From IMG/VR virus record IMGVR_UViG_3300000059_000086, positions 1 through 18,704 of that record: a stretch of DNA of 18,704 bases, one strand, 5' to 3'. Below, one piece after another: positions 2,447 through 13,262 of the stretch. The notes under the pieces are model-generated. The model worked only from the letters and a program-made list of their open reading frames with translations. It had not been told where the DNA came from and did no database searches. Every line of letters starts with the position of its first letter. Within the stretch, counting starts at the first letter, position 1. This DNA is from a virus (taxonomy: Duplodnaviria > Heunggongvirae > Uroviricota > Caudoviricetes). Both the position numbers and the translations under genes were made by a program.

Positions 2447-2839
2447 ATGGAGCAAATCAGTAGCGCCGAAATAGCGGATATCATGATCAGGGCTGACTGC
2501 TATCTGACGGTCACCGAAATCACCAGCCGTGCAAAAGCACAATATCCTCACCTTCATGTGTCGCGCGTAAACGTAAATAACATCATACGTTTTTTTGTTC
2601 GTTCCAGTCGTGCCATTTGCGAAATAGACGACCGCGTATACCCCCGGAAATATTGGCTACATGGCCTGAATGGATACCAGTTCAAGGTGCGCGGGCGCAC
2701 TCCTGAATTCGGTCGGCTGTTGGTGAAAAACACCAACCGAAAGATAGAAGCTCAATTACGAAAGGAGCAGCGTCAGTTGGTGGCGATGACTAACCAGCTA
2801 TGGAACGCCGCCGTGAAAAAACGTGAGGCTTCCCTATGA
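2447..2839 (+). CDS. lpa: Small basic protein (130 aa) immediately upstream of and overlapping pacA; positional equivalent of P1 Lpa (late promoter activator)
   Basis: Stop overlaps the pacA start (ATGA); assignment rests on synteny with P1 lpa-pacA-pacB, not on recognised sequence similarity. Confidence 0.45.
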   Translation: MEQISSAEIADIMIRADCYLTVTEITSRAKAQYPHLHVSRVNVNNIIRFFVRSSRAICEIDDRVYPRKYWLHGLNGYQFKVRGRTPEFGRLLVKNTNRKIEAQLRKEQRQLVAMTNQLWNAAVKKREASL

Positions 2840-4200
2840 CGTTAATTAATTGGGAAGCGCATCGAGCTAAGTTCCTGGAGTTAAGAGAAGAAACCGGGAT
2901 CACCATAAAGGAATATTGCGAGCAGCATGACCTCAGCTTTAACACCGCCAGAAAGCATCTCAATATGAAAAAAAATGAGGTTAAAGCGAAAGCTAAGGCT
3001 GCCGGGAAAAGTACAAAACAGCGCGCAAAAAGCAGCGCCACAAGCCCAAAAAAAGAGCAAAAAAAGGCTGATAAAAACACAGAATTTACAAAAACTGACA
3101 AATCGTTAGCTGGTGGACGATTCCGTGCCATGCCGCAAAAACAAAATGCGGATCACAAAGAAAAGTCAAGTAATAACAACAAGATACACAAGGGTGTAAG
3201 GGGATCATTTTGTGATGAAATGGGGGAAATGATCCCTAAAAGCAGCGAAAAAGCCCAACGAAACAAGGGATCATTGCAAATGATCCCTGACTCATCAGCT
3301 CAAAGCGCCACTTTGCCTGCCACCAACGTCGCCCGTGAGATGATGAAGAACGGCGCGACTGAACATTTACGACTTGCGATACAGATGGCGCAGGAACGAG
3401 CAATTCAGTATCAGGCCATCGTTGACCAGGAAGCGGAACGACTACAGGAAGAGATTGACGCCCTCGGCGATACACAGCCAGAGGGAATGCACCCAGGGCA
3501 GCGTCTTCTCGGCCTAATAAGCGATGCGGCCTACTACATGAATGACTTTATCAGTAGGTTGGCTGCCATCTACCAGACCGAGCAGAAGCTACGCCAGGGG
3601 GATGAAAAACTTGCGCAGGGCGCGCGCCAGCAGGCATTCAGAGAGGCTGAGGCCAGAGAAAAACTGGCGATTACTCGCCTGCAAGCCGAGCAGCGTGGCA
3701 AAGAGATTGAGTATCGCATTGGCGCTGACGCACGCGCCGCCAGAGTTATCGCCGCCGCTATACGTATGCGTGAGCGCGAGGAGCTGGACGATATAGGCGT
3801 TGCTGAATATATCGAGCGGCAGGGCGTCAGTGTCCCGGCTATCCTGGCGGCACGAGCGGCAAAAGCGATCTCACTTCTGGAGCCTCCGGTTTCTGACGTT
3901 AACGATGTTGATGATGAGCAACTGGATAAAGAGGCGAAGCAGTTTGCCGAGCAACAAGCTGGACTCCCACAATGGCTTGCACAACGCCGGGCTGAAGTAG
4001 CGAAAATCGTTGATAGGCTTGGGATGGGGGATTACGACCGGAACGGAGAACGTAAAGCCGGTGAATTTGAGGCCAATGATGAAGACCTGAATATAGACCC
4101 TTCCGCCACGGCTGATATCTACGGTGATTATGACGCGGGGGATACCGGTTTTGATGCTGTAGATGACGAGATTGCGATAGACCAGCCGGAGGATGACTAA
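2836..4200 (+). CDS. pacA: PacA-like terminase small/recognition subunit (454 aa)
   Basis: N-terminal HTH-like segment, long charged coiled region, very acidic C-terminal tail; coupled to a downstream terminase ATPase; contains the GATC hexamer cluster. Confidence 0.75.
   Translation: MTLINWEAHRAKFLELREETGITIKEYCEQHDLSFNTARKHLNMKKNEVKAKAKAAGKSTKQRAKSSATSPKKEQKKADKNTEFTKTDKSLAGGRFRAMPQKQNADHKEKSSNNNKIHKGVRGSFCDEMGEMIPKSSEKAQRNKGSLQMIPDSSAQSATLPATNVAREMMKNGATEHLRLAIQMAQERAIQYQAIVDQEAERLQEEIDALGDTQPEGMHPGQRLLGLISDAAYYMNDFISRLAAIYQTEQKLRQGDEKLAQGARQQAFREAEAREKLAITRLQAEQRGKEIEYRIGADARAARVIAAAIRMREREELDDIGVAEYIERQGVSVPAILAARAAKAISLLEPPVSDVNDVDDEQLDKEAKQFAEQQAGLPQWLAQRRAEVAKIVDRLGMGDYDRNGERKAGEFEANDEDLNIDPSATADIYGDYDAGDTGFDAVDDEIAIDQPEDD
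3151..3285. promoter_or_regulatory. Candidate pac packaging site: five copies of hexamer TGATCC/GGATCA, each containing a Dam GATC
   Basis: GATC at 3151, 3203, 3231, 3269, 3282 in both orientations, two pairs forming AGGGATCATT...AATGATCCCT inverted repeats; the P1 pac site is a cluster of TGATCA/G hexamers inside pacA. Confidence 0.45.
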
Positions 4201-5708
4201 TGGCTGGTGGTCGTAAGATTAAGTGCGTGACCAGTGATCCACGTTGGCGCGATATGGTTATCAGGTATCGATACAACTTTACCCAGGCGGTTGTCGATAT
4301 TTTTGGGATGTTCCCCTCCCACCAGCAGCAGCAGATCATTCAGTCAGTGCAGGAGACGGGGAGCAGGACGACCGTTACGTCCGGACACGGAACGGGTAAG
4401 TCGTCCCTTACCGCGATGTTGCTACTAATTTTTATGATCCTGTTCCCCGACGCCCGCGTCATTATTGTTGCGAACAAAATAGGCCAGGTAAAAACAGGCG
4501 TATTCAAATACGTGAAACAGTTTTGGGCGAATGCTGTTAAGCGCCACGGCTGGTTACAGACCTATTTTGTCCTGTCTGACACCATGTTTTATGAGCGTTC
4601 CCGTAAAGGGATATGGGAAGTGCTCTGTAAAGGTTATCGACTCGGTAACGAAGAGGCACTGGCGGGGGAGCACGCGGAGCATTTACTGCTAATCCTTGAT
4701 GAAGCATCGGGCATATCCGATAAGGCGATTAACGTCATGACGGGGGCGTTAACGCAGAAAGATAACCGTATGCTCATGCTTTCCCAGCCTACGCGTCCAA
4801 GCGGTTACTTTTATGAATCCCACCATTCAAGGGCAAAGGCAGAAGGCAATCCGGAAGGAGTCTGGACGGCAATAGTCCTTAACTCTGAAGAATCACCATT
4901 CGTTGAACCGAGCTTTATTCGTGAGAAATTGCTTGAGTACGGCGGCAGGGATTCGCTGGAGTACATGGTTAAGGTGCTGGGCCAGTTCCCGCGTGCAATT
5001 AACGGGTATTTGCTTGGTCGTGATGAGTGCGACCGCGCCGCACGGCGTAAAGTGTTGCTGGAGAAAGATTGGGGCTGGGTAGCGACCGCTGACGTCGGTA
5101 ATGGTCGCGACAAATCGGTGCTCAATATATGCAAAGTATCCGGTTATCGTGAGAAAAGACGTGTTGTGAACTTTAAGATACTGGAGATGCCAGGCACTAT
5201 GGACCCGTTGGCTTTTGCCGACTTTATCTATAACGAATGCACTCCTGATAAATACCCGAACATCACCATTGCTGTGGATGCTGATGGCTTTGGTTCAGAT
5301 ACGTGTGCGCAGCTTGTCCGCCGTGGTGCTAACCCCGTTCGCATCCGTTGGGGTAAACCTATGTTTGCGCTAAGAGACAGAGAACGCTTTGTCAATCAGC
5401 GTGCTTACGCCAATATTATGGCAGGGGATGCCATTAAATCAGGGCGTATGCGTATCGATAGTGACCCCAAAACTGCCGATCAGGCATCAAAAATCCCGTA
5501 TATGCTTAACGAAGAAGGGAAGGTAGCGATGATGCGCAAGGAGCACATGCGGCAGAAGTTAAACATCAAGTCGCCGGACAGATGGGATACCTACTGCTTC
5601 ACTATGCTGGTGGATTACGTGCCTGCTAATGAAGACATTGGCGCAGAACTCGCAACATTCCGCGATCAGGTGTTGGCAGAAGTGGATATTCCTGATATTG
5701 ACATTTAA
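4200..5708 (+). CDS. pacB: PacB-like terminase large subunit (502 aa), ATPase plus nuclease
   Basis: P-loop GHGTGKSS, Walker B LLLILDEASG, C-terminal acidic cluster (VDADGFGSD) consistent with an RNase H-like nuclease half; GGAGGA RBS; start overlaps the pacA stop. Confidence 0.9.
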   Translation: MAGGRKIKCVTSDPRWRDMVIRYRYNFTQAVVDIFGMFPSHQQQQIIQSVQETGSRTTVTSGHGTGKSSLTAMLLLIFMILFPDARVIIVANKIGQVKTGVFKYVKQFWANAVKRHGWLQTYFVLSDTMFYERSRKGIWEVLCKGYRLGNEEALAGEHAEHLLLILDEASGISDKAINVMTGALTQKDNRMLMLSQPTRPSGYFYESHHSRAKAEGNPEGVWTAIVLNSEESPFVEPSFIREKLLEYGGRDSLEYMVKVLGQFPRAINGYLLGRDECDRAARRKVLLEKDWGWVATADVGNGRDKSVLNICKVSGYREKRRVVNFKILEMPGTMDPLAFADFIYNECTPDKYPNITIAVDADGFGSDTCAQLVRRGANPVRIRWGKPMFALRDRERFVNQRAYANIMAGDAIKSGRMRIDSDPKTADQASKIPYMLNEEGKVAMMRKEHMRQKLNIKSPDRWDTYCFTMLVDYVPANEDIGAELATFRDQVLAEVDIPDIDI

Positions 5709-5745: not shown

Positions 5746-6783
5746 TTACCAGAGTTTTGCCGCGTACATCGTTTGTGTGAATGTGTACCCATAGCGTTCT
5801 TCAACGCTTTTACCGTATTTTTTCCTGGCTTCAGTAAGGCGGATGCCTGTCAGGTCATCGCCGGAGGCAATCATAACTTCCAGTAGTTCCAGGTCCATTT
5901 TATCCAGCCTTGCCATTGCATCTTTAGCTTCTTGAATTTTCCGGCTAACGATCTGGTGTATGGCTGGATCGGCTTCGGACAGCATTTTCTCTGATTTGTT
6001 TTTTAAACTCTGATTGCGGATATCAATGTTTCTCAGGATATATGACTTCACGACATAGCTTGGCTGCTGCTTTTCCAGGTCACGAACCCGATAAAGGTCA
6101 AATTCACCGAGAAGGCCGCACGGAAGCGGTTTAATGCCAGTGTAAATGGTAAGGGTGCGGCGCTCACCAACGTTGTTAACAATGGGGATCTCAGTGTTTG
6201 CTTTTCTTGCAAAGATCAGCGCACCGTGCGTACCCACTCTGAAGCGAGAAAGTCCATTGTTGCCCTCGATATTGGTGGTAATCACAACATCGGTATAACC
6301 TTCTTTTCTTGCGCGGTATACCTCGCCCTCACGTTCAGCGGCGAAGAATCTGCGTTCTTCTTCAAGTGCACCGACAACCTGTGAAAATATCCTGTTTTTC
6401 ATGCTTTTCTTTATAGTTTTATCGTATTTTTTCAGCAGGTCTTCGCGCGTGAATGTTCTCGTTGTGGTTGCGCTTTGCATAACGATATGCGTACTCTGAT
6501 TAGTATCCTCAACAATGAATGGGATCGGTAAATAAACCGACTCAACAATGTTTGAGGCTTTGTCATCATCCTTGCGACACAGATCAACAAAGGCTTTCCA
6601 TTCGGCTATGCATTTTTCAGCTTCTTCTAATACAGCCGGATCATGTGTTAATGCAACATGGCGAAATTCCTCGCCAACGTAACTGGTATCATGGAAAACA
6701 GAGTTTGCGACCACCAGCTCTTTCCACCGTTCAGCGGTTTGCAGGAACCGTTTGTACTCATTCTCGATCGACTTCTTACTCAT
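5746..6783 (-). CDS. 346-aa protein in the c1 position of the immC region (between pacB and the recombination site); possible immunity repressor, identity unconfirmed
   Basis: ATG at 6783 with AGGAA RBS (the track's longer ORF starts at an upstream in-frame codon); convergent with pacB; operator-like 13-mers lie just upstream; no HTH or C1 similarity recognised by eye. Confidence 0.8.
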   Translation of the reverse strand: MSKKSIENEYKRFLQTAERWKELVVANSVFHDTSYVGEEFRHVALTHDPAVLEEAEKCIAEWKAFVDLCRKDDDKASNIVESVYLPIPFIVEDTNQSTHIVMQSATTTRTFTREDLLKKYDKTIKKSMKNRIFSQVVGALEEERRFFAAEREGEVYRARKEGYTDVVITTNIEGNNGLSRFRVGTHGALIFARKANTEIPIVNNVGERRTLTIYTGIKPLPCGLLGEFDLYRVRDLEKQQPSYVVKSYILRNIDIRNQSLKNKSEKMLSEADPAIHQIVSRKIQEAKDAMARLDKMDLELLEVMIASGDDLTGIRLTEARKKYGKSVEERYGYTFTQTMYAAKLW

Positions 6784-6796
6784 TATTCCTACTCGA

Positions 6797-6809
6797 TTTA
6801 GTTTTCTAA
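6797..6809 (-). promoter_or_regulatory. Operator-like 13-mer TTAGAAAACTAAA (minus-strand reading), 14 bp upstream of the 346-aa gene start
   Basis: Variant of the 13-mer at 2355 and 8194. Confidence 0.4.
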
Positions 6810-6887
6810 CATAAAAGTCCTGTGACAAATTTATGCTGAATAACAAGGTGAGTAAAGGATAAAACCGCTTTTTTTTGATTGTTCCTA

Positions 6888-6980: not shown

Positions 6981-7012
6981 TAACTTTAAATAATTGGCAT
7001 TATTTAAAGTTA
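6981..7012. other. rox: rox-type site-specific recombination site: 14-bp perfect inverted repeats around a 4-bp spacer (TAACTTTAAATAAT-TGGC-ATTATTTAAAGTTA)
   Basis: Perfect palindromic arms; equals the reverse complement of the published rox site as remembered; lies about 150 bp upstream of the Cre-family recombinase gene. Confidence 0.85.
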
Positions 7013-7164
7013 GGCTATAATCTCCAGTAAACAGGTAGTATTGACAAGGATGAAAAATCATGCCTCGAATCAAAGGCTTGAATTTTTAAAATTAACTTAT
7101 AACTACCCTGTCAGTTTTCTATTTTTCACGTAGCGTCATCTGTATATAGAGGTTTAATAGTTTC

Positions 7165-8193
7165 ATGGGTGAACTAGTTATCTCCGGCGGTTCTGGCGGT
7201 TTTCTGCGCGATATTGGCACCGAATACCAGGAAGCTGCAAAAAACTTTATGCAGTTCATGAACGACCAGGGAGCTTATGCCCCAAATACACTTCGTGATC
7301 TCCGTCTGGTCTTTCATTCCTGGGCGCGGTGGTGTAATTCGCGCCAGCGCCCCTGGTTCCCGATTACGCCGGAAATGGCCCGCGAGTATCTTCTCCAGTT
7401 GCATGAAGCCGATCTGGCTTCGACCACCATTGATAAGCACTATGCCATGCTTAACATGCTGCTTTCGCAATGCGGCCTACCGCCGCTGTCAGACGATAAA
7501 AGTGTATCTCTGGCCATGCGGCGCATCCGGCGCGAAGCGGCAACGGAAAAAGGCGAGCGTACAGGCCAGGCTATACCGTTGCGGTGGGATGATCTGAAAT
7601 TGCTCGACGTATTGCTGTCCCGTTCCGAGCGGCTGGTGGACCTGCGCAATCGGGCGTTTCTCTTCGTGGCATACAATACCCTGATGCGTATGTCAGAAAT
7701 CTCGCGCATCCGTGTCGGAGATCTGGACCAAACAGGTGACACTGTAACGCTGCATATTTCACACACGAAGACCATCACGACCGCCGCCGGACTTGATAAG
7801 GTGCTTTCTCGTTGCACTACCGCCGTGCTAAACGACTGGCTGGAGGTGTCCGGACTTCGTGAACATCCGGACGCGGTGCTATTCCCGCCAATACACCGCA
7901 GTAATAAAGCCAGAATCACGACAACGCCTCTTACTGCTCCTGCGATGGAGAAAATATTCAGCGATGCCTGGGGATTGCTGAATAAGCGAGATGCCACGCC
8001 GAACAAAGGAAGATACCGGACGTGGACAGGTCATAGTGCGCGTGTTGGTGCGGCAATTGATATGGCTGAGAAACAGGTGTCAATGGTCGAGATCATGCAG
8101 GAAGGCACATGGAAAAAGCCCGAAACACTTATGCGATATTTGCGCCGTAGCGGGGCATCCGTTGGTGCAAATAGTCGCCTGATGGATTCCTGA
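7165..8193 (+). CDS. dre: Cre-family tyrosine recombinase, Dre-like (342 aa)
   Basis: Cre-like blocks along its length: WARWC, RNRAFLFVAYNTLMRMSEISRIRVGDL, HSARVGAAIDMA, and the tyrosine block ETLMRYLR; adjacent rox site. Confidence 0.93.
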   Translation: MGELVISGGSGGFLRDIGTEYQEAAKNFMQFMNDQGAYAPNTLRDLRLVFHSWARWCNSRQRPWFPITPEMAREYLLQLHEADLASTTIDKHYAMLNMLLSQCGLPPLSDDKSVSLAMRRIRREAATEKGERTGQAIPLRWDDLKLLDVLLSRSERLVDLRNRAFLFVAYNTLMRMSEISRIRVGDLDQTGDTVTLHISHTKTITTAAGLDKVLSRCTTAVLNDWLEVSGLREHPDAVLFPPIHRSNKARITTTPLTAPAMEKIFSDAWGLLNKRDATPNKGRYRTWTGHSARVGAAIDMAEKQVSMVEIMQEGTWKKPETLMRYLRRSGASVGANSRLMDS

Positions 8194-8610: not shown

Positions 8611-9095
8611 AAACTTACTACCCATCCCTGAACTGCTATCCAACCACTAATCCTGAGCTGTCAGGGAAACTTCTGTCCCTCCTGGCTGATAGTCCTGATG
8701 AATGGCATAAGCCTGGTGATATCAACACACAGTTCCCTGAGTACGGGTGTATCCGCACCCGAAATGAGCTGAAGAACCTCATTGCTCACGGTTTTGTCCG
8801 TCACCGTAGCGGGAAAGGCTATCAGTTGGCTATCCCACAAGGAGAGGCAAGAGAACTCTTTGGCTATCGAGAAAGCCAGACGCAAGCGCGGGTGATCGCA
8901 GAAATTATCCGTAATGGCAGCGTCTATGCCCGCAAATTCTGGCTGTCTGGCGGTGGCGATGCATCACAGTTCTTGCGTGCTGTGCGATCGCTGGAGGAAC
9001 AAGGTGTTATCGAGAATACCTGCGTCTCCGTTCCGACCGCTCCGCATATCAAACGCCGGATTTATACATTTACCCGGAGAGCTAAAAAGCAATGA
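8607..9095 (+). CDS. Hypothetical protein (162 aa), possibly tandem winged-helix-like
   Basis: AGGGGG RBS; segments LIAHGFVRHRSGKGYQL and LRAVRSLEEQGVI look like winged-helix recognition regions; weak inference. Confidence 0.55.
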   Translation: MKTYYPSLNCYPTTNPELSGKLLSLLADSPDEWHKPGDINTQFPEYGCIRTRNELKNLIAHGFVRHRSGKGYQLAIPQGEARELFGYRESQTQARVIAEIIRNGSVYARKFWLSGGGDASQFLRAVRSLEEQGVIENTCVSVPTAPHIKRRIYTFTRRAKKQ

Positions 9096-9586
9096 TTAAC
9101 GTGAAAGTGAAACGCCTTCATCCGGCGGCAAAACTCCCCGTTTACGCCACCGCCGGATCGGCGGCGATGGATTTTGTTGCTGTTGAAATAACGCCTGGTA
9201 TCGATAGCAATGGCGCTATTTCCTCAAGCTGGTGGGTGCATACCGGCCTCGCTATGGCGATCCCTCCTGGTTGGTGTCTGAAACTTTATCCTCGTTCCGG
9301 ATTGGGCTGCAAAAAGCATACGCGCCTGGCTAACTGCGTAGGAATTATCGACGCCGATTATCGCGGTGAAATCATGGCAAAACTGATTACAGATCCCGGT
9401 GGTGAAGGTGTTTGCCTCAAGCCTGGAATGGCGGTCATGCAAGGCATTTTTGAGCGTGTTGAACCGGTATCGCTGGTAGAAGTTGATGAACTCGATGAAA
9501 CAGAGCGAGGTGCTGGTGGTTTTGGTAGCACATCGGAAGGCCGCGTTGAAATCAAGCGTACACCGCTTCAGTACGAAAAGTTTTAA
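9092..9586 (+). CDS. dut: dUTPase (trimeric Dut family)
   Basis: All five dUTPase motifs present: AGSAAMDF, PRSGLG, GIIDADYRGEI, and C-terminal RGAGGFGSTS. Confidence 0.9.
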   Translation: MINVKVKRLHPAAKLPVYATAGSAAMDFVAVEITPGIDSNGAISSSWWVHTGLAMAIPPGWCLKLYPRSGLGCKKHTRLANCVGIIDADYRGEIMAKLITDPGGEGVCLKPGMAVMQGIFERVEPVSLVEVDELDETERGAGGFGSTSEGRVEIKRTPLQYEKF

Positions 9587-9600
9587 GTAGAGGAAGGATT

Positions 9601-10263
9601 ATGGTCAGCACTTTTCAGGTGTTCCCCAAATACAAATGCCACAGCATCATTCGGGCATCGAAAATCAAAGATATTGTTATTGTCGGCGAAGATTATGCGC
9701 CCATTTTTGGCAGTATCGAAGTCGTTGAGCCAAAAGGAATGACGCTTCGTGTTGATGGTGTGTTCTTGGAAAAATTCCGCCCGCAAATAGGAGGATATCT
9801 CGTCACTGCTGAAAATGGCTATCTGGTCTATGTGCCAGAGAAAGCATTTGAAAAATGCTATAGCCGGGTTAACGACGCCTTCGAAAATGGGACATTGCTC
9901 AGCATTGAAGGTCACAATGGGGTGACATTCATTACAGCCAGGGACGTAACTATTTCTGCTGGCGGTATCGCTACTCTACAAGAAGAAATCGACCTTGAAG
10001 CAGCCGACTTTTCTGACGCGCTGATGTGGCTGAAGGATGGCAAGAAAGTTGCTCGACGCGGGTGGAACGGCGAAAACCAATTCTGCTGGCTGGTTCCTGA
10101 AGGACAGTACCCGGCACGAATGGAAGCCATTAAGGGATATTTCCCCGGCGACCTCGTTCCGTATGGTGCTTATTTCGCCTTAAAAAATGCACAAGGTGTA
10201 GTTGTTCCGTGGGTGCCTTCAGTTGGCGACCTGCTGGCCTGTGACTGGTTTGTTGTGGAGTGA
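9601..10263 (+). CDS. Two-domain protein (220 aa): unknown N-terminal domain fused to a C-terminal DUF2829/Tad2-like domain
   Basis: AGGAAGG RBS; C-terminal blocks ALMWLKDGKKVARRGWNGEN and PWVPSVGDLLACDWFVV match the remembered DUF2829 signature. Confidence 0.7.
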   Translation: MVSTFQVFPKYKCHSIIRASKIKDIVIVGEDYAPIFGSIEVVEPKGMTLRVDGVFLEKFRPQIGGYLVTAENGYLVYVPEKAFEKCYSRVNDAFENGTLLSIEGHNGVTFITARDVTISAGGIATLQEEIDLEAADFSDALMWLKDGKKVARRGWNGENQFCWLVPEGQYPARMEAIKGYFPGDLVPYGAYFALKNAQGVVVPWVPSVGDLLACDWFVVE

Positions 10264-10269
10264 TTTAAC

Positions 10270-11076
10270 GTGGAAAATACCAAAAACATTCAATATCGCC
10301 TGCGTAACGGCCTGCTGGTGGATGTAAACGATGATATGTCCCTGCCCTTTGCCACCATTGAGCGAACCATCCTTACATACCTGGGCTTAGACGAAGAGTT
10401 AGATAGTGAGAATGGCATTGCTATCTGGCGTGACGGAAAAACGGGAGTCAGACGTTTTATTACGGCAAGAGGCATTCAGTGCACACAGGAAGAATTGTTT
10501 GAACTGGCGCAGTCTTATGGATGCATCGCGTTAGATCCCCTGTATGACCCAGCCATAGCACAACAACTCATTCGAGAGCTGTCGCTTTCGGTCACGCCAA
10601 TAATCTTCCGCCAGGGAACCTTAACCGGCACATGGCGTGTAGAACGCATCTCTAAATATCAGCCATATAATATCCATTTGAACGGCACTATTACTGGTGT
10701 GGATCAACCAGTAGCAGGTGAAAACAAAGACCTGGAACTTGCAGTAATGATGGCCGCTTGTCGCGTGCTTGGCCTGGGCAAGCAGATGTTTATCCATTTC
10801 CCAAACGGCGCGGAAGGCGAAGTAGACCTGATTTCCTGCGACTTTTCCTTAACCTGGATGCTTGATGAATTCCTGGACAAAACAGTATTCCGTGCTGAAG
10901 AACTGGATATGTATGTCACCTCAAGTATTCCTAATGACGTGAAAGTTGAGGCCATCGCTACAGCCAGGGCGAAATGCCGTGCGGCGATTGCAGAACAGGC
11001 CAAAGAAGAACAGTCCGATGAAGTCGCGGCAGATGTGGAGGCAGAGGTAGCGGAGGATGCTGATGCTGACGCCTAA
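10270..11076 (+). CDS. Hypothetical protein (268 aa) with acidic C-terminal tail, coupled to the terminase-like paralogue
   Basis: GTG start with GGAG upstream; tail EVAADVEAEVAEDADADA resembles the acidic tail of PacA; 3' end overlaps the next gene. Confidence 0.6.
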   Translation: MENTKNIQYRLRNGLLVDVNDDMSLPFATIERTILTYLGLDEELDSENGIAIWRDGKTGVRRFITARGIQCTQEELFELAQSYGCIALDPLYDPAIAQQLIRELSLSVTPIIFRQGTLTGTWRVERISKYQPYNIHLNGTITGVDQPVAGENKDLELAVMMAACRVLGLGKQMFIHFPNGAEGEVDLISCDFSLTWMLDEFLDKTVFRAEELDMYVTSSIPNDVKVEAIATARAKCRAAIAEQAKEEQSDEVAADVEAEVAEDADADA

Positions 11077-12163
11077 AAACATCACCGAATTACCAGAGTG
11101 GAGAGAGCTGGTAAGCAAATATAGCCATGACTGGGCATTAGCAGCAGAAGAGTTGATGGGGGTTAAGTTAACCCACCAGCAAAAATTAATTGTTGAAGCG
11201 ATTCAACAAAAAGGTTCAGCAGTCAGCGTTACCACACCGACTGGGATAGGACATAAGTCTGCTCTGGCTATCATTTGTATCCTTTATACGATCCTGATGC
11301 CTGAGTCTAAAACGGTCATGGTCGCTCCAGACTTTGAGCGTAATGGAATGGTAACTCTCTCACTCATGAATATGTATTGGGAGAAAGCTAATACAAAAGC
11401 GCCATTACTGGGAGAGTATTTTCAAATCGACCAAAATGGCCTCAATCATCGTTACCAAAAATCTTGGGGCTGCGAAATTAAACCATATCGCCTAAATTAT
11501 GAGGAAGATGTAGCCGGATATTATGCTGAACATCTTTTGATCATTGTTATGGACGCGGCTCTTGTAAGCTATCGGCTATTCGGGATGTTAAGAGCATCTT
11601 TAGTGAGTGACGATTCACGTATACTTTTAATGTCCGCTCCTCCAGAGGAGGAACATGGACACTTTTACGATTCCCATCATGGTCGTGCAAAAACTGAAGA
11701 AAATCCATGTGGTATTTATACAGCCATCAAGCTGAACGCAGAAGAATCACCTCTGCTTACTCAAGATTATCTTGATGGGATTGCAGAAATGTATGGTGGT
11801 AAAATCGGCGATGATTACCGTCGCATGGTTCTTGGTGAGTTCCCGGGTATTCGGGAGGCTGTTCTTGAATCAGATATGCCGAAAACAATGCGCTTTTCGA
11901 TGCCTGATGGTAGTGAATGGACAATGCCATTACAAGTGATAGCCCGGCATCATGCACAGCACCACGCAAAAAAACATGGCGTTACAACATTAGAGTGGTT
12001 GAAATCGCACACCATTCCACTCTTCACTGCAGATCACAATGCTATCGTTGAGTGGGCAAAAACAATTCCGTGGGAGAATGTCGCTGAATACGCCCACATG
12101 CTAAAACCGCCGAAAGACAGGCAAGAAATTAGCTGGCTGACAGCAGAAAAAATCATTGAGTGA
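11063..12163 (+). CDS. Terminase-large-subunit ATPase-domain paralogue with degenerate Walker motifs and no nuclease domain (about 366 aa)
   Basis: Shares blocks with PacB (AEHLL, HxFY[DE]SHHxRAKxExNP, TAIxLNxEESP, YGG, VLGxFP), but the P-loop is PTGIGHKS, Walker B is IIVMDAA, and the C-terminal ~100 aa are unrelated to the PacB nuclease half; ATG at 11063 has better RBS spacing than 11057. Confidence 0.8.
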   Translation: MLTPKNITELPEWRELVSKYSHDWALAAEELMGVKLTHQQKLIVEAIQQKGSAVSVTTPTGIGHKSALAIICILYTILMPESKTVMVAPDFERNGMVTLSLMNMYWEKANTKAPLLGEYFQIDQNGLNHRYQKSWGCEIKPYRLNYEEDVAGYYAEHLLIIVMDAALVSYRLFGMLRASLVSDDSRILLMSAPPEEEHGHFYDSHHGRAKTEENPCGIYTAIKLNAEESPLLTQDYLDGIAEMYGGKIGDDYRRMVLGEFPGIREAVLESDMPKTMRFSMPDGSEWTMPLQVIARHHAQHHAKKHGVTTLEWLKSHTIPLFTADHNAIVEWAKTIPWENVAEYAHMLKPPKDRQEISWLTAEKIIE

Positions 12164-12170
12164 TAGTAGG

Positions 12171-12200
12171 AAGCCCGCCTGGTTGAGCGGGCTTCTTTTC
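12171..12200 (+). terminator. Rho-independent terminator (AAGCCCGC-ctggttga-GCGGGCTT followed by CTTTTC)
   Basis: 8-bp GC-rich stem and T-run immediately after the operon stop; sits between convergent operons. Confidence 0.7.
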
Positions 12201-12579
12201 AAATATTGGAACCATATAGTTCACGTAGTTTCTCCGCTACTGAAGATACGGGGATTTCACCAGTTGCAGCCCCAACCGCAAGTTCCACCAGCACGGGAGA
12301 ATCATATACCTGTATACCGTTACGGCGTAGAAATAGCAGCGCACTGTTTAGCGCGGTACGCTTATTGGCATCATTGAATATATGCCCTCTCGCAGTAGCC
12401 ACCAGGTAGGTGGCGGAGACTTCGAAAAGGTCGGTGATCTCTTCGTAGGCAACTCTGGCCTGAACTCTCCCGATAATGGCCTCTGCCCTACCCGGATCTG
12501 ACATTCCCGGCAGGCCGCCGTAGCGGTTTATATTCGCATCATGAAGCGCAATAAGTTCTTCCGGTGATATATGCCTCAT
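12199..12579 (-). CDS. doc: Doc toxin (Fic/Doc family kinase) of the phd-doc addiction module
   Basis: Doc signature [11 protein letters not shown]; near-identical in character to P1 Doc; start overlaps the phd stop (TAATG). Confidence 0.93.
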
Positions 12580-12800
12580 TATCGGTTAACCAGTTCCTTG
12601 TTGGTGGAGTCCAGAGTGTCAAACAGGGATGCAAATTCGGCATCCAGCGCCGCTTTTTTGTAGGCTTCAAAAGTAGCCTTGTTGACAATTACTGCTGGCT
12701 CACGGCCTCTGCGGGTGATTTCAACCTCTTCCCCGGCTTCAACATTGTTGAGCACTTCAGAAAGGTTGCCGCGCGCGGTACGGAAGTTAATGGATTGCAT
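12579..12800 (-). CDS. phd: Phd antitoxin
   Basis: Protein [39 protein letters not shown]... matches P1 Phd as remembered; GAGGTG RBS; start taken at the ATG two codons inside the track ORF. Confidence 0.93.
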
Positions 12801-12807
12801 AAACACC

Positions 12808-12872: not shown

Positions 12873-13262
12873 TTAAATCACCGGACAATCATCAAATTCC
12901 CCACTTCGGGCATCATTGATGACATGAGTGATCACACCAAAAACAGCATTACTGCCCGTGTATCCATCGTCATCTACTGGTAACGCCTCTTTCTTCCCGG
13001 TTCTTAAATCCTCCAGGTGCTGGCGCGGATACTTCCGGTATCTTTTTACGCGATATTCCCCCTCCATAGCGCATATAAGCAGTGAACCATCAACCGGAGT
13101 AAGTGAGGAATCAACCACCAGCAAAGCACCCTGCAATATTCCCTCACGGTGATGGCTGTCTGCCGCCCGCATGAAGTAGGTTGCTGAAGGATGTCTGATT
13201 AGTTGCTGATCAAGAGAAATACGGCTCTCTGCATAATCCGCCGCAGGAGAAGGGAAGCCCAT
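12873..13262 (-). CDS. humD: HumD, UmuD'-like SOS mutagenesis protein (S24 peptidase fold)
   Basis: GFPSPAADYxExRIxLxQxLIxHPSATYF block typical of UmuD; begins at the position equivalent to processed UmuD'. Confidence 0.88.
   Translation of the reverse strand: MGFPSPAADYAESRISLDQQLIRHPSATYFMRAADSHHREGILQGALLVVDSSLTPVDGSLLICAMEGEYRVKRYRKYPRQHLEDLRTGKKEALPVDDDGYTGSNAVFGVITHVINDARSGEFDDCPVI

What the first reader, a model, noticed from the sequence alone, without database searches (positions are those of the whole stretch)
10270..12163. A second pacA/pacB-like gene pair whose large-subunit copy looks catalytically dead and lacks the nuclease half
The 11063-12163 product is clearly homologous to the ATPase half of PacB (4200-5708) in the same window, sharing AEHLL, HxFY[DE]SHHxRAKxExNP, TAIxLNxEESP, YGG and VLGxFP. 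But the P-loop is PTGIGHKS against GHGTGKSS, Walker B is IIVMDAA against LILDEAS, and the C-terminal nuclease region is replaced by an unrelated ~100-aa tail. It is translationally coupled to an upstream gene with a PacA-like acidic tail. An inactive terminase paralogue carried next to the real one could be a packaging modulator, a dominant-negative exclusion factor against related phages, or a decoy for host immune sensors that recognise terminase large subunits (such as Avs-type STAND proteins). I do not recognise this as a described P1 function.
Basis: partly seen in the sequence, partly recalled or inferred. Interest (0 to 1): 0.82.

Follow-up and report, generated by a model that had tools for sequence, protein, structure and literature searches.

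The report
Dead PacB terminase paralogue beside isaA
Besides its real DNA-packaging enzyme, this P1/D6-type phage-plasmid carries an optional, fast-changing copy of the enzyme's motor domain that has lost its catalytic residues and its nuclease half and is fused to a small phage domain of unknown function. It probably works as a molecular mimic in phage-host or phage-phage conflict, but its target is unknown.

Summary
The core observation holds. The 11063-12163 product (366 aa) is a true paralogue of the ATPase half of PacB (34% identity over 258 aa, E 6e-49). In every family member examined it lacks the Walker A lysine and the Walker B aspartate. It has no nuclease domain. It ends in a 105-aa domain that also occurs as a free-standing ~100-aa protein in many phages.

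The upstream gene is not PacA-like. It is the homologue of P1 isaA, a named, non-essential gene of unknown function.

The dead paralogue is absent from P1 and D6 themselves. It is present in about 22% of P1/D6-like plasmids in PLSDB, always alongside a real pacB and always in accessory regions. Three architectures exist: dead ATPase plus small domain, small domain plus dead ATPase, and dead ATPase alone.

Its ATPase-like part has dN/dS of 0.3-0.46, against 0.03-0.05 for pacB and cre. It occurs as at least three divergent alleles that recombine independently of the backbone, next to an equally mosaic Tad2-like gene.

The best reading is a non-catalytic terminase mimic used in conflict. The target was not determined. 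It is undescribed in the literature I could search. Interest is moderate to high.

The parts
10270..11076 (+). isaA homologue (268 aa, GTG start), translationally overlapped with the next gene
11052..11056 (+). GGAGG ribosome-binding site inside the end of isaA, 6 nt before the ATG at 11063
   Evidence: Read directly from the sequence. Homologues start MLTPKN.
11063..11845 (+). PacB-derived ATPase-fold domain with degenerate catalytic motifs (pseudo-terminase domain)
   Evidence: 34% identity to window PacB, E 6e-49. 36.6-36.9% to P1-family PacB. Foldseek of the low-confidence model returns only large-terminase ATPase domains at the top: 4zni, 2o0j, 6z6d. dN/dS 0.25-0.46. At least 3 alleles reassort independently of the backbone.
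11237..11260 (+). Walker A remnant PTGIGHKS (PacB: GHGTGKSS)
   Evidence: At the position of the invariant PacB lysine, six family members have H/Q/R/E/R/T. At the following Ser they have K/K/P/T/A/T.
11534..11560 (+). Walker B remnant LLIIVMDAA (PacB: LLLILDEAS)
   Evidence: The PacB Asp is replaced by M/T/V/I/V/P. The catalytic Glu position has D/E/D/N/N/K.
11846..12163 (+). C-terminal 105-aa small domain (mobile phage domain of unknown function) plus stop codon
   Evidence: No similarity to the PacB nuclease half. phmmer against 1.84 billion representatives: 207 proteins at E<=1e-3. Of 154 domain matches by BLASTP, 89 are free-standing proteins of <=135 aa. No Pfam family. Partners seen: DUF1351 in 3 members, Lar-like in 1. 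Free-standing in Cronobacter phage JK004, and C-terminal in Xanthomonas phage CP2 ORF36. dN/dS 0.04-0.10; 96-100% identical among D6-type plasmids.
12170..12199 (+). Intrinsic terminator closing the operon, between the gene and the convergent doc
   Evidence: GAAGCCCGC-loop-GCGGGCTTC followed by TTTT.
9601..10263 (+). Context: upstream Tad2-like/DUF2829 gene in the same gene string
   Evidence: Pfam Tad2-like, E 1.6e-22. In window vs L017 it is the only other divergent patch between near-identical backbones.

Best explanation
**What it is.** The 11063-12163 gene encodes a pseudo-enzyme. It carries the ATPase-fold half of the P1-family large terminase PacB, with the ATP-hydrolysis residues destroyed and the nuclease half removed. 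This is fused to a small, widely distributed phage domain of unknown function. It is an optional cargo gene of P1/D6-type phage-plasmids, translated from an overlap with isaA.

**How it most likely works (inferred).** It acts by binding, not catalysis. It presents a terminase-like surface that competes for, or shields against, a factor that recognises the PacB/TerL ATPase domain. The variable ATPase-like domain would be the recognition or escape surface. The constant small domain would be the conserved functional or anchoring part.

**Target class.** I judge host immunity that senses large terminases (Avs1-3- or Upx-like sensors) the most likely target, with the protein made early in the lytic cycle. 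The pacase of competing P1-like elements is the next candidate.

**Shown:** homology, loss of motifs, architecture, distribution, selection pattern, mosaicism.
**Inferred:** binding-only action, early expression, conflict role.
**Unknown:** the actual partner.
For: **Homology and dead motifs**
-.
- The same losses occur in a domain-permuted relative (small domain first, then dead ATPase: GSGTGTTT / SVIVPKAT).
- They also occur in a stand-alone 263-aa version in Citrobacter (GIGCKH / FFICPNAN).
- The dead ATPase domain is therefore the maintained unit, and its link to the small domain arose or was rearranged at least twice.

**Maintained by selection, but fast-evolving**
- dN/dS is 0.25-0.46 for the ATPase-like part and 0.04-0.10 for the small domain.
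- pacB and cre give 0.03-0.05 in the same pairs.

**Accessory status**
- 163 of 748 PacB-bearing plasmids have it.
- It is absent from P1, D6 and RCS47.
- 48 complete E. coli genomes keep only a 37-43-nt 3' scar.
- It is never chromosomal.

**Allele reassortment**
- At least 3 alleles, 51-77% identical, sit on backbones that are ~100% identical, and identical alleles sit on diverged backbones.
- There is no co-variation with pacA or pacB.
- The only other divergent patch between the window and L017 is the Tad2-like gene.

**Context**
- A Tad2-like domain lies upstream.
- In the P1-type context the pair follows ssb, behind a C1 operator with 1 mismatch. P1 annotates Ossb as C1-controlled.

**Precedent that a terminase ATPase domain alone is what sensors see**
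- EcAvs2 and Upx are activated by the ATPase domain alone.
- T4 vs.8, a free ATPase-domain paralogue, triggers EcAvs2 (bioRxiv 10.64898/2026.04.30.721860).
Against: - There is no experimental or structural evidence of any partner.
- The AF2 model of the protein is poor (pLDDT 52), so surfaces cannot be analysed.
- Binding to Avs-type sensors normally activates them. EcAvs2 contacts the terminase-bound ATP, which this protein probably cannot hold, so simple decoy action is not straightforward.
- No known anti-defence or defence family matches (PADLOC, Pfam, NCBIfam).
- Elevated dN/dS is also compatible with relaxed constraint.
- Neighbourhood is only guilt by association. Other members sit next to ssb, ref or ban-type DNA-metabolism genes.
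Confidence: 0.4

Rival explanations
1. Inter-phage competition factor. The dead domain binds the small subunit (PacA) or the PacB of a competing or co-resident P1-like element and poisons assembly of its pacase. Different alleles would be matched to different rivals.
For: - It keeps the whole N-terminal region and the C-terminal subdomain of the PacB ATPase half. The C-terminal subdomain is the part most conserved with PacB (45% against PacB).
- In lambda and T4 the small-subunit contact lies in the N-terminal ATPase half of the large subunit (established knowledge, not tested here).
- PacA is itself highly variable: 74-97% within the D6 type and 25% to P1.
- Divergent alleles that do not match the resident pacA fit a weapon aimed at others.
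- Satellites are known to interfere with packaging through terminase-binding proteins (my own knowledge: PICI Rpp, SaPI Ppi).
Against: - In the P1-type context the gene lies behind a C1 operator. It would then be silent in the lysogen, which is where exclusion is most useful.
- All alleles are equally distant (33-37%) from every PacB type.
- Self-poisoning would have to be avoided.
- No interaction data exist.
Confidence: 0.2
2. Regulator of the element's own packaging. It binds the resident PacA or PacB to delay or tune pac cleavage and motor assembly.
For: It is always co-resident with pacA and pacB. It retains PacB-like non-catalytic surfaces. The early operon position would place it before late pacase synthesis.
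Against: - It is dispensable and often deleted.
- It is absent from P1 and D6, which package normally.
- Its alleles reassort with no relation to the resident pacA or pacB.
- A dN/dS ten times that of pacB is unusual for a housekeeping regulator.
Confidence: 0.1
3. The terminase fold has been re-used for a DNA replication or recombination accessory role unrelated to packaging, working with IsaA and the small domain.
For: - Family members sit next to ssb, overlap the stop of ref, or lie beside a Ref-type nuclease.
- The small domain is free-standing after a DnaB-type helicase gene in JK004. In Xanthomonas phages it is fused to DUF1351, next to DUF2303.
Against: - These neighbourhoods are mixed early or accessory regions of P1-type genomes, not dedicated recombination modules.
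- Hypervariable alleles are not expected for a DNA-metabolism cofactor.
- No DNA-binding motif was detected.
Confidence: 0.15
4. It is still an active NTPase with non-canonical motifs: the lysine shifted by one position in GIGHKS, and Asp at the catalytic-Glu position.
For: The window allele keeps a Lys one residue later and an Asp next to the lost Walker B Asp. The Gln about 20 residues before the P-loop is nearly invariant.
Against: Other members with full-length, selected genes have GIGRPQ, GIGRAP, GIGETS or GTGTTT, with no lysine at all. Their Walker B regions are IVVNAA, IVINSA or IVPKAT, with no acidic residue. Several further PacB-invariant residues around the site are lost in all members.
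Confidence: 0.04
5. It is a decaying remnant of a duplicated or captured terminase gene, with no function.
For: Catalytic motifs and the nuclease half are lost. dN/dS is elevated. Deletion is frequent.
Against: - Intact ORFs of constant length occur in 163 plasmids across lineages that are only 43-78% identical.
- dN/dS is well below 1, and 0.04-0.10 in the small domain.
- The overlap with isaA is conserved in three lineages.
- The same two domains are joined in the opposite order in another lineage.
Confidence: 0.04

Closest known systems
PacB, the large terminase (pacase B) subunit of P1/P7/D6
   Same: Clear homology over the whole N-terminal ATPase half with the same domain boundaries. Encoded in the same genomes. 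Shares the N-terminal pre-P-loop region and the FYDSHH...NP.G...SP...YGG...G.FP subdomain.
   Different: The Walker A Lys/Ser, the Walker B Asp and other PacB-invariant residues are lost. There is no nuclease half. An unrelated small domain is added. It is accessory rather than essential. dN/dS is about ten times higher. It forms a separate clade, equally distant (33-37%) from all PacBs, which are 61% identical to each other.
T4 vs.8 (free-standing paralogue of the gp17 terminase ATPase domain)
   Same: A phage-encoded extra copy of the terminase ATPase domain without the nuclease. Function unknown. Discussed in relation to Avs2 sensing (bioRxiv 10.64898/2026.04.30.721860).
   Different: vs.8 is reported to keep its Walker A and B motifs and to activate EcAvs2. 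The family here has lost them and usually carries an extra small domain. No direct homology test against vs.8 was run.
P1 isaA / isaB (IS1-associated genes; variable region RD-2 of P1-like plasmids)
   Same: The upstream gene is an isaA homologue. In P1-type plasmids without IS1 the dead paralogue occupies the position that IS1 plus isaB holds in P1, between isaA and hxr. The region is a known variable hotspot (PMC9603915, PMC6906374).
   Different: P1 isaB showed no match to the dead paralogue. tblastn with the 368-aa protein and megablast with the isaA/paralogue region of MH422554 both miss isaB. isaA is non-essential and of unknown function (PMC10695390), so the name adds no mechanism.
Packaging-interference proteins of phage satellites (PICI Rpp, SaPI Ppi/TerS) - functional analogy only, from my own knowledge
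   Same: Non-enzymatic proteins that act on terminase assembly by binding a terminase subunit.
   Different: They are unrelated in sequence, are encoded by satellites rather than by the phage itself, and have demonstrated targets. No target is known here.
Tad2-type anti-defence sponges (neighbouring gene only)
   Same: Adjacent in the same gene string and sharing the mosaic, allele-swapping behaviour.
   Different: No sequence or fold relationship to the dead paralogue.

Membership tests
Large terminase subunit (TerL/PacB) | Sequence homology to the ATPase domain of a bona fide large terminase | tested here: met
   E 6e-49 to window PacB. 36.6-36.9% to P1/P7 PacB. E about 1e-13 to Clostridium phage TerL. 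phrog_7579 'terminase large subunit', E 0.0021.
Large terminase subunit (TerL/PacB) | Walker A P-loop with conserved lysine (GxxxxGK[ST]) | tested here: not met
   Six members have H/Q/R/E/R/T at the PacB lysine position. Several members have no lysine nearby.
Large terminase subunit (TerL/PacB) | Walker B hhhhDE with catalytic glutamate | tested here: not met
   Asp is replaced by M/T/V/I/V/P. The Glu position has D/E/D/N/N/K.
Large terminase subunit (TerL/PacB) | C-terminal RNase H-like nuclease domain | tested here: not met
   No alignment beyond residue 263. BLASTP with the PacB nuclease half finds nothing in any family member. The C-terminus belongs to a separate small-domain family.
Large terminase subunit (TerL/PacB) | TerL ATPase three-dimensional fold | tested here: inconclusive
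   The AF2 model is poor (mean pLDDT 52; residues about 10-145 are better). Its top Foldseek PDB hits are nevertheless all TerL ATPase domains: P74-26 4zni E 1e-3, T4 gp17, HK97.
Large terminase subunit (TerL/PacB) | DNA packaging / pac cleavage activity | not testable with these tools
   Needs biochemistry or genetics.
Small terminase / PacA (claimed for the upstream gene) | Sequence or profile similarity to PacA | tested here: not met
   BLASTP finds no hit. hhalign probability 0.14%.
Small terminase / PacA (claimed for the upstream gene) | Small-terminase-like fold | tested here: not met
IsaA (P1 gp017, phrog_2326) | Full-length homology to P1-family IsaA, and position in the variable isaA region | tested here: met
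   D6 orf113 is annotated as similar to isaA. 46% aa identity to the IsaA of MH422554, whose gene is 97% identical to P1 isaA. phrog_2326, E 4.8e-125.
phrog_5902 (uncharacterised phage protein family) | End-to-end match to the family profile | tested here: met
   E 4.3e-127, residues 7-367 against profile positions 3-358 of 359.
Free terminase-ATPase paralogues of the T4 vs.8 type | Stand-alone ATPase domain with intact Walker motifs | tested here: not met
   The domain is present without a nuclease, but the motifs are degenerate. The vs.8 properties are taken from the preprint.
Decoy or inhibitor of terminase-sensing immunity (Avs1-3, Upx) | Binds the sensor and blocks its activation | not testable with these tools
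   No multimer modelling or assay was available. No PADLOC or Pfam family matches. The literature search found no terminase-derived decoy.
DUF5076 (for the small domain) | Significant match to the Pfam model or its structure | tested here: inconclusive
   Pfam E 0.051, below the cut-off. The profile against PDB 3ic3 gives E 0.19 over about 40 residues.

The most novel reading that the evidence does not exclude
P1/D6-type phage-plasmids carry a family of hypervariable, catalytically dead terminase-ATPase mimics. They come with the small domain on either side, or without it. They neutralise or evade host sensors that recognise the large terminase (Avs1-3- or Upx-like), for example by occupying the sensor without allowing its oligomerisation, or by masking monomeric PacB. 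This would be the first counter-defence derived from the very protein the sensors detect.
Probability: 0.25. Interest if true: 0.88.

Novelty: new variant of a known kind. Interest (0 to 1): 0.62.

Why it matters
Large terminases are now known to be a main molecular pattern by which bacterial immune sensors (Avs1-3, Upx) detect tailed phages. A naturally occurring family of terminase-ATPase folds that has lost its ATP site, evolves quickly and swaps alleles gives a concrete reagent. It can be used to ask what else recognises this fold: immune sensors, the small terminase subunit, or rival phages' packaging machinery.

It also corrects database annotation, because several records call the gene 'terminase large subunit'. 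It defines a new small phage domain with more than 200 cluster representatives and no Pfam entry. Finally, it shows that the isaA region of P1-like plasmids, so far treated as an insertion hotspot, carries a structured and reassorting accessory module.

Tried and rejected
**Structure and sequence searches of the dead paralogue**
- Structure prediction used a 9-sequence alignment and gave a poor model (pLDDT 52). No surface or pocket analysis was possible, and both prediction jobs are spent.
- Sequence and profile searches of the PDB gave nothing for the protein. For the small domain they gave only E 0.19.
- Pfam, NCBIfam and PADLOC gave no family for either gene.

**Checks that came out negative**
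- P1 isaB as a remnant of the gene: rejected, because no similarity was found.
- IsaA as a diverged PacA: rejected.
- A P1-type C1 operator in the window: none within 3 mismatches. Expression timing in the D6-type context therefore remains unknown.
- Co-variation of the ATPase-like domain with the resident pacA or pacB: none. pacB is too conserved for this test to exclude PacB binding.

**Neighbourhoods of the free-standing small-domain proteins**
- These were uninformative.

**Literature**
- Searches for isaA function, terminase decoys or inactive terminase paralogues found no description.
- The Lobocka 2004 P1 genome paper is not held in the library.

**Permuted form**
- It was not found in PLSDB. 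It is known here from one metagenomic contig and from fragment calls in Klebsiella michiganensis.
Full report
**Setting.** The window is part of a D6-type (P1-like) phage-plasmid. It holds:
- pacA (2836-4200) and pacB (4200-5708);
- a C1-type repressor gene on the minus strand (5746-6846);
- a Cre/Dre-type recombinase (7165-8193);
- two small ORFs, then dut (9092-9586);
- a DUF2829/Tad2-like gene (9601-10263);
- the two genes of the finding;
- convergent doc/phd and humD.

The same order is annotated in phage D6 and in many ~90-kb E. coli plasmids.

**Check of the observation.**
- PacB's GHGTGKSS is PTGIGHKS here, and LLLILDEAS is LLIIVMDAA.
- After residue 263 there is no similarity to PacB.
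- The true start is the ATG at 11063, 6 nt after GGAGG. It overlaps the upstream gene by 14 nt.
- The upstream product has no similarity to PacA by BLASTP or by profile-profile comparison (probability 0.14%).
- Its acidic C-terminus is missing in several relatives.
- It is the homologue of P1 isaA. D6 orf113, which is 72.5% identical in DNA, is annotated as similar to isaA. The window protein is 46% identical to the IsaA-type protein of a P1-type genome, whose gene is 97% identical to P1 isaA.

So the 'dead large subunit' part is confirmed and the 'second pacA' part is not.

**The catalytic site is dead across the whole family.** I compared eight relatives from protein searches and phage genomes, a permuted relative and a Citrobacter relative.
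- At the position of PacB's invariant Walker A lysine they carry H, Q, R, E, T or C.
- Several P-loops (GIGRPQ, GIGRAP, GIGETS, GTGTTT) have no lysine at all.
- The Walker B aspartate is replaced by M, T, A, V, I or P.
- The catalytic-glutamate position is D, E, N or K.
- Further residues invariant in three PacBs are absent from all dead copies: E153/H154, and Q192/T194/R195 after motif III.
- The three real PacBs compared (window, P1, L012) all keep GHGTGKS and DEAS.

The replacement residues differ between members, which is what loss of constraint on catalysis predicts. The AF2 model was poor (pLDDT 52), yet its best PDB matches are all large-terminase ATPase domains. I treat that only as weak support for the fold.

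**It is a maintained gene, not debris.**
- Full-length copies occur in 163 of the 748 PLSDB plasmids that carry a PacB-like gene.
- They fall in lineages only 43-78% identical to each other and 33-37% identical to any PacB. P1 and D6-type PacBs are 61% identical to each other.
- dN/dS is 0.25-0.46 for the ATPase-like part and 0.04-0.10 for the C-terminal 105 residues. In the same genome pairs pacB and cre give 0.03-0.05 and isaA gives 0.12-0.17.
- PHROGs already holds the family (phrog_5902), with no function assigned. Some GenBank records call it 'terminase large subunit'.

**The C-terminal 105 residues form a domain of their own.**
- An exhaustive phmmer search found 207 cluster representatives at E<=1e-3.
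- Most are free-standing proteins of about 100 aa. The rest have the domain at either end of longer proteins.
- It has no Pfam family. The only partners recognised were DUF1351 (three members) and a Lar-like restriction-alleviation domain (one member).
- It is free-standing in the P1-like Cronobacter phage JK004, downstream of a DnaB-type helicase gene. It is C-terminal in ORF36 of Xanthomonas phage CP2.
- Weak hints to DUF5076 and PDB 3ic3 are not significant.

**Three architectures exist.**
- A metagenomic D6/P1-like contig (L012) encodes a 366-aa protein with the small domain first and the PacB-like domain second. The PacB-like domain again has a dead P-loop (GSGTGTTT) and a dead Walker B (SVIVPKAT). 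The gene is not next to isaA.
- A Citrobacter freundii P1-like plasmid encodes the dead ATPase domain alone (263 aa; GIGCKH, FFICPNAN). Its start overlaps the stop of ref.
- One E. coli cluster (P0007) also lacks the small domain.

The dead ATPase domain is therefore the core unit, and the small domain is a recurrent partner joined in either order.

**Genomic behaviour.**
- In P1-type plasmids the pair sits between ssb and hxr. That is exactly where P1 has isaA-IS1-isaB and RCS47 has isaA plus another transposase.
- Searches with the paralogue and with its isaA region found no match to P1 isaB.
- This region is a published variable hotspot (PMC9603915, PMC6906374). P1 isaA is non-essential by CRISPRi (PMC10695390).
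- A C1 operator with one mismatch lies just upstream of ssb in the P1-type carrier, as in P1, where Ossb is annotated as C1-controlled. Early, repressor-controlled expression is therefore inferred there.
- No P1-type operator is present in the window.
- Among complete E. coli genomes all matches are on plasmids. 48 genomes retain only the last 37-43 nt of the gene. One near-identical plasmid shows the deletion running from just after the isaA stop to about 40 nt before the end of the gene. D6 itself lacks the gene.

**Allele reassortment.** I compared six D6-type plasmids.
- The ATPase-like domain exists as at least three alleles: GIGHKS/IVMDAA, GIGQKT/IVTEAA and GIGRPQ/IIVDSA. They are 51-77% identical.
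- The small domain stays 96-100% identical and PacB 91-100%.
- Alleles do not follow the backbone. The window and L017 are 97-100% identical in pacA, pacB, cre and isaA but only 77% in this domain. The window and L018 differ in pacA and isaA (74%) but share a 99% identical domain.
- In a sliding comparison, the window and L017 differ in only two patches: the Tad2-like gene (9540-10220) and the core of the dead ATPase domain (11170-11800). isaA is a third independently reassorting patch in other pairs.

**Interpretation.**
- Shown: a PacB-derived pseudo-ATPase, lacking the nuclease, usually fused to a mobile small domain. It is optional, plasmid-borne, under purifying but comparatively weak selection, hypervariable by recombination, and co-located with a Tad2-like gene and isaA.
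- Inferred: it acts by binding rather than catalysis, and it serves a conflict function.

A role in tuning the element's own packaging fits poorly with its dispensability, its absence from P1 and D6, and the lack of any relation between its alleles and the resident pacA or pacB.

The two conflict readings are interference with terminase-sensing immunity and interference with rival pacases. Recent work shows that EcAvs2 and Upx are triggered by the terminase ATPase domain alone. It also shows that T4 vs.8, a free ATPase-domain paralogue with intact Walker motifs, triggers EcAvs2, and that EcAvs2 contacts the terminase-bound ATP (bioRxiv 10.64898/2026.04.30.721860). Loss of the ATP site here could therefore mean escape from such recognition as much as decoy action. 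I cannot decide between these readings.

A DNA-metabolism role is a live alternative, because several members neighbour ssb, ref or helicase genes.

**Novelty.** I found no paper describing this gene, the domain permutation or the small domain. It is a new variant of a known kind: a terminase-family pseudo-enzyme. The closest described analogue is T4 vs.8.

Noticed in passing
window 6981-7012 (upstream of the recombinase gene 7165-8193): A perfect 14-bp inverted repeat around a 4-bp centre, TAACTTTAAATAAT-TGGC-ATTATTTAAAGTTA. It overlaps the -35 of the best sigma-70-like promoter in the region (6994-7021, 11 of 12 matches). From memory it matches the rox site of the D6 Dre recombinase. The D6 record annotates a rox half-site at the equivalent place.
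   Followed up: partly
window 9601-10263: A 220-aa protein with a C-terminal Tad2-like (Thoeris anti-defence 2 / DUF2829) domain (E 1.6e-22) and a separate N-terminal domain (phrog_11049). It is one of only two divergent patches between the window and L017 (about 51-78% nt identity; dN/dS 0.2-0.4 in comparisons with two other D6-type plasmids, L008 and L009). In contig L012 the Tad2-like domain is instead fused to the dUTPase.
   Followed up: partly
L012:15565-16665 (-), Logan SRR12267734 contig: A circularly permuted relative: small domain at the N-terminus, dead PacB-like ATPase domain at the C-terminus. It lies between a DUF968 (pdcB-like) gene and a Ref-type nuclease gene, about 5.5 kb from isaA. 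Only this contig and split fragment calls in Klebsiella michiganensis were seen. PLSDB has none.
   Followed up: partly
L016:3974-4765 (Citrobacter freundii plasmid NZ_CP114569.1): A stand-alone 263-aa dead PacB-like ATPase domain without the small domain. Its start overlaps the stop of a Ref-family nuclease gene, and it lies upstream of mat.
   Followed up: partly
E. coli plasmids such as NZ_CP069647.1 (L007:3790-3850), equivalent to window 11079-12124 deleted: 48 complete E. coli genomes keep only a 37-43-nt 3' remnant of the gene directly after isaA. There are two slightly different end points (query positions 1059 and 1065). This points to one or two ancestral deletions that spread.
   Followed up: partly
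window 10270-11076 and relatives: The IsaA model (pLDDT 84.5) has two alpha/beta modules plus a 45-residue C-terminal helix. The best structural neighbours are the uncharacterised 'phage ABA sandwich'-type proteins 1r7l and 4pup. isaA also exists as divergent alleles (62-76% nt identity) on related backbones.
   Followed up: partly
window 2836-4200 (pacA) compared with P1 and L012: PacA is far more divergent than PacB. It is 25% identical to P1 PacA, against 61% for the PacB ATPase half. The window's PacA has a long lysine/serine-rich low-complexity insert near residues 45-160.
   Followed up: no
window 12199-12579 (-), 12579-12806 (-), 12873-13262 (-): doc, phd and humD (UmuD'-like) homologues converge on the gene pair. 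doc is 98-99% identical across plasmids whose isaA and dead-ATPase alleles differ strongly. The D6 pdcA gene between isaA and doc is missing here.
   Followed up: no
GenBank MH422554.1, MH445380.1 and nr 'MAG TPA: Terminase large subunit' (P0005): The dead paralogue is annotated as 'terminase large subunit' in some public records. P0005 also has a spurious 74-residue N-terminal extension from a mis-called start.
   Followed up: yes
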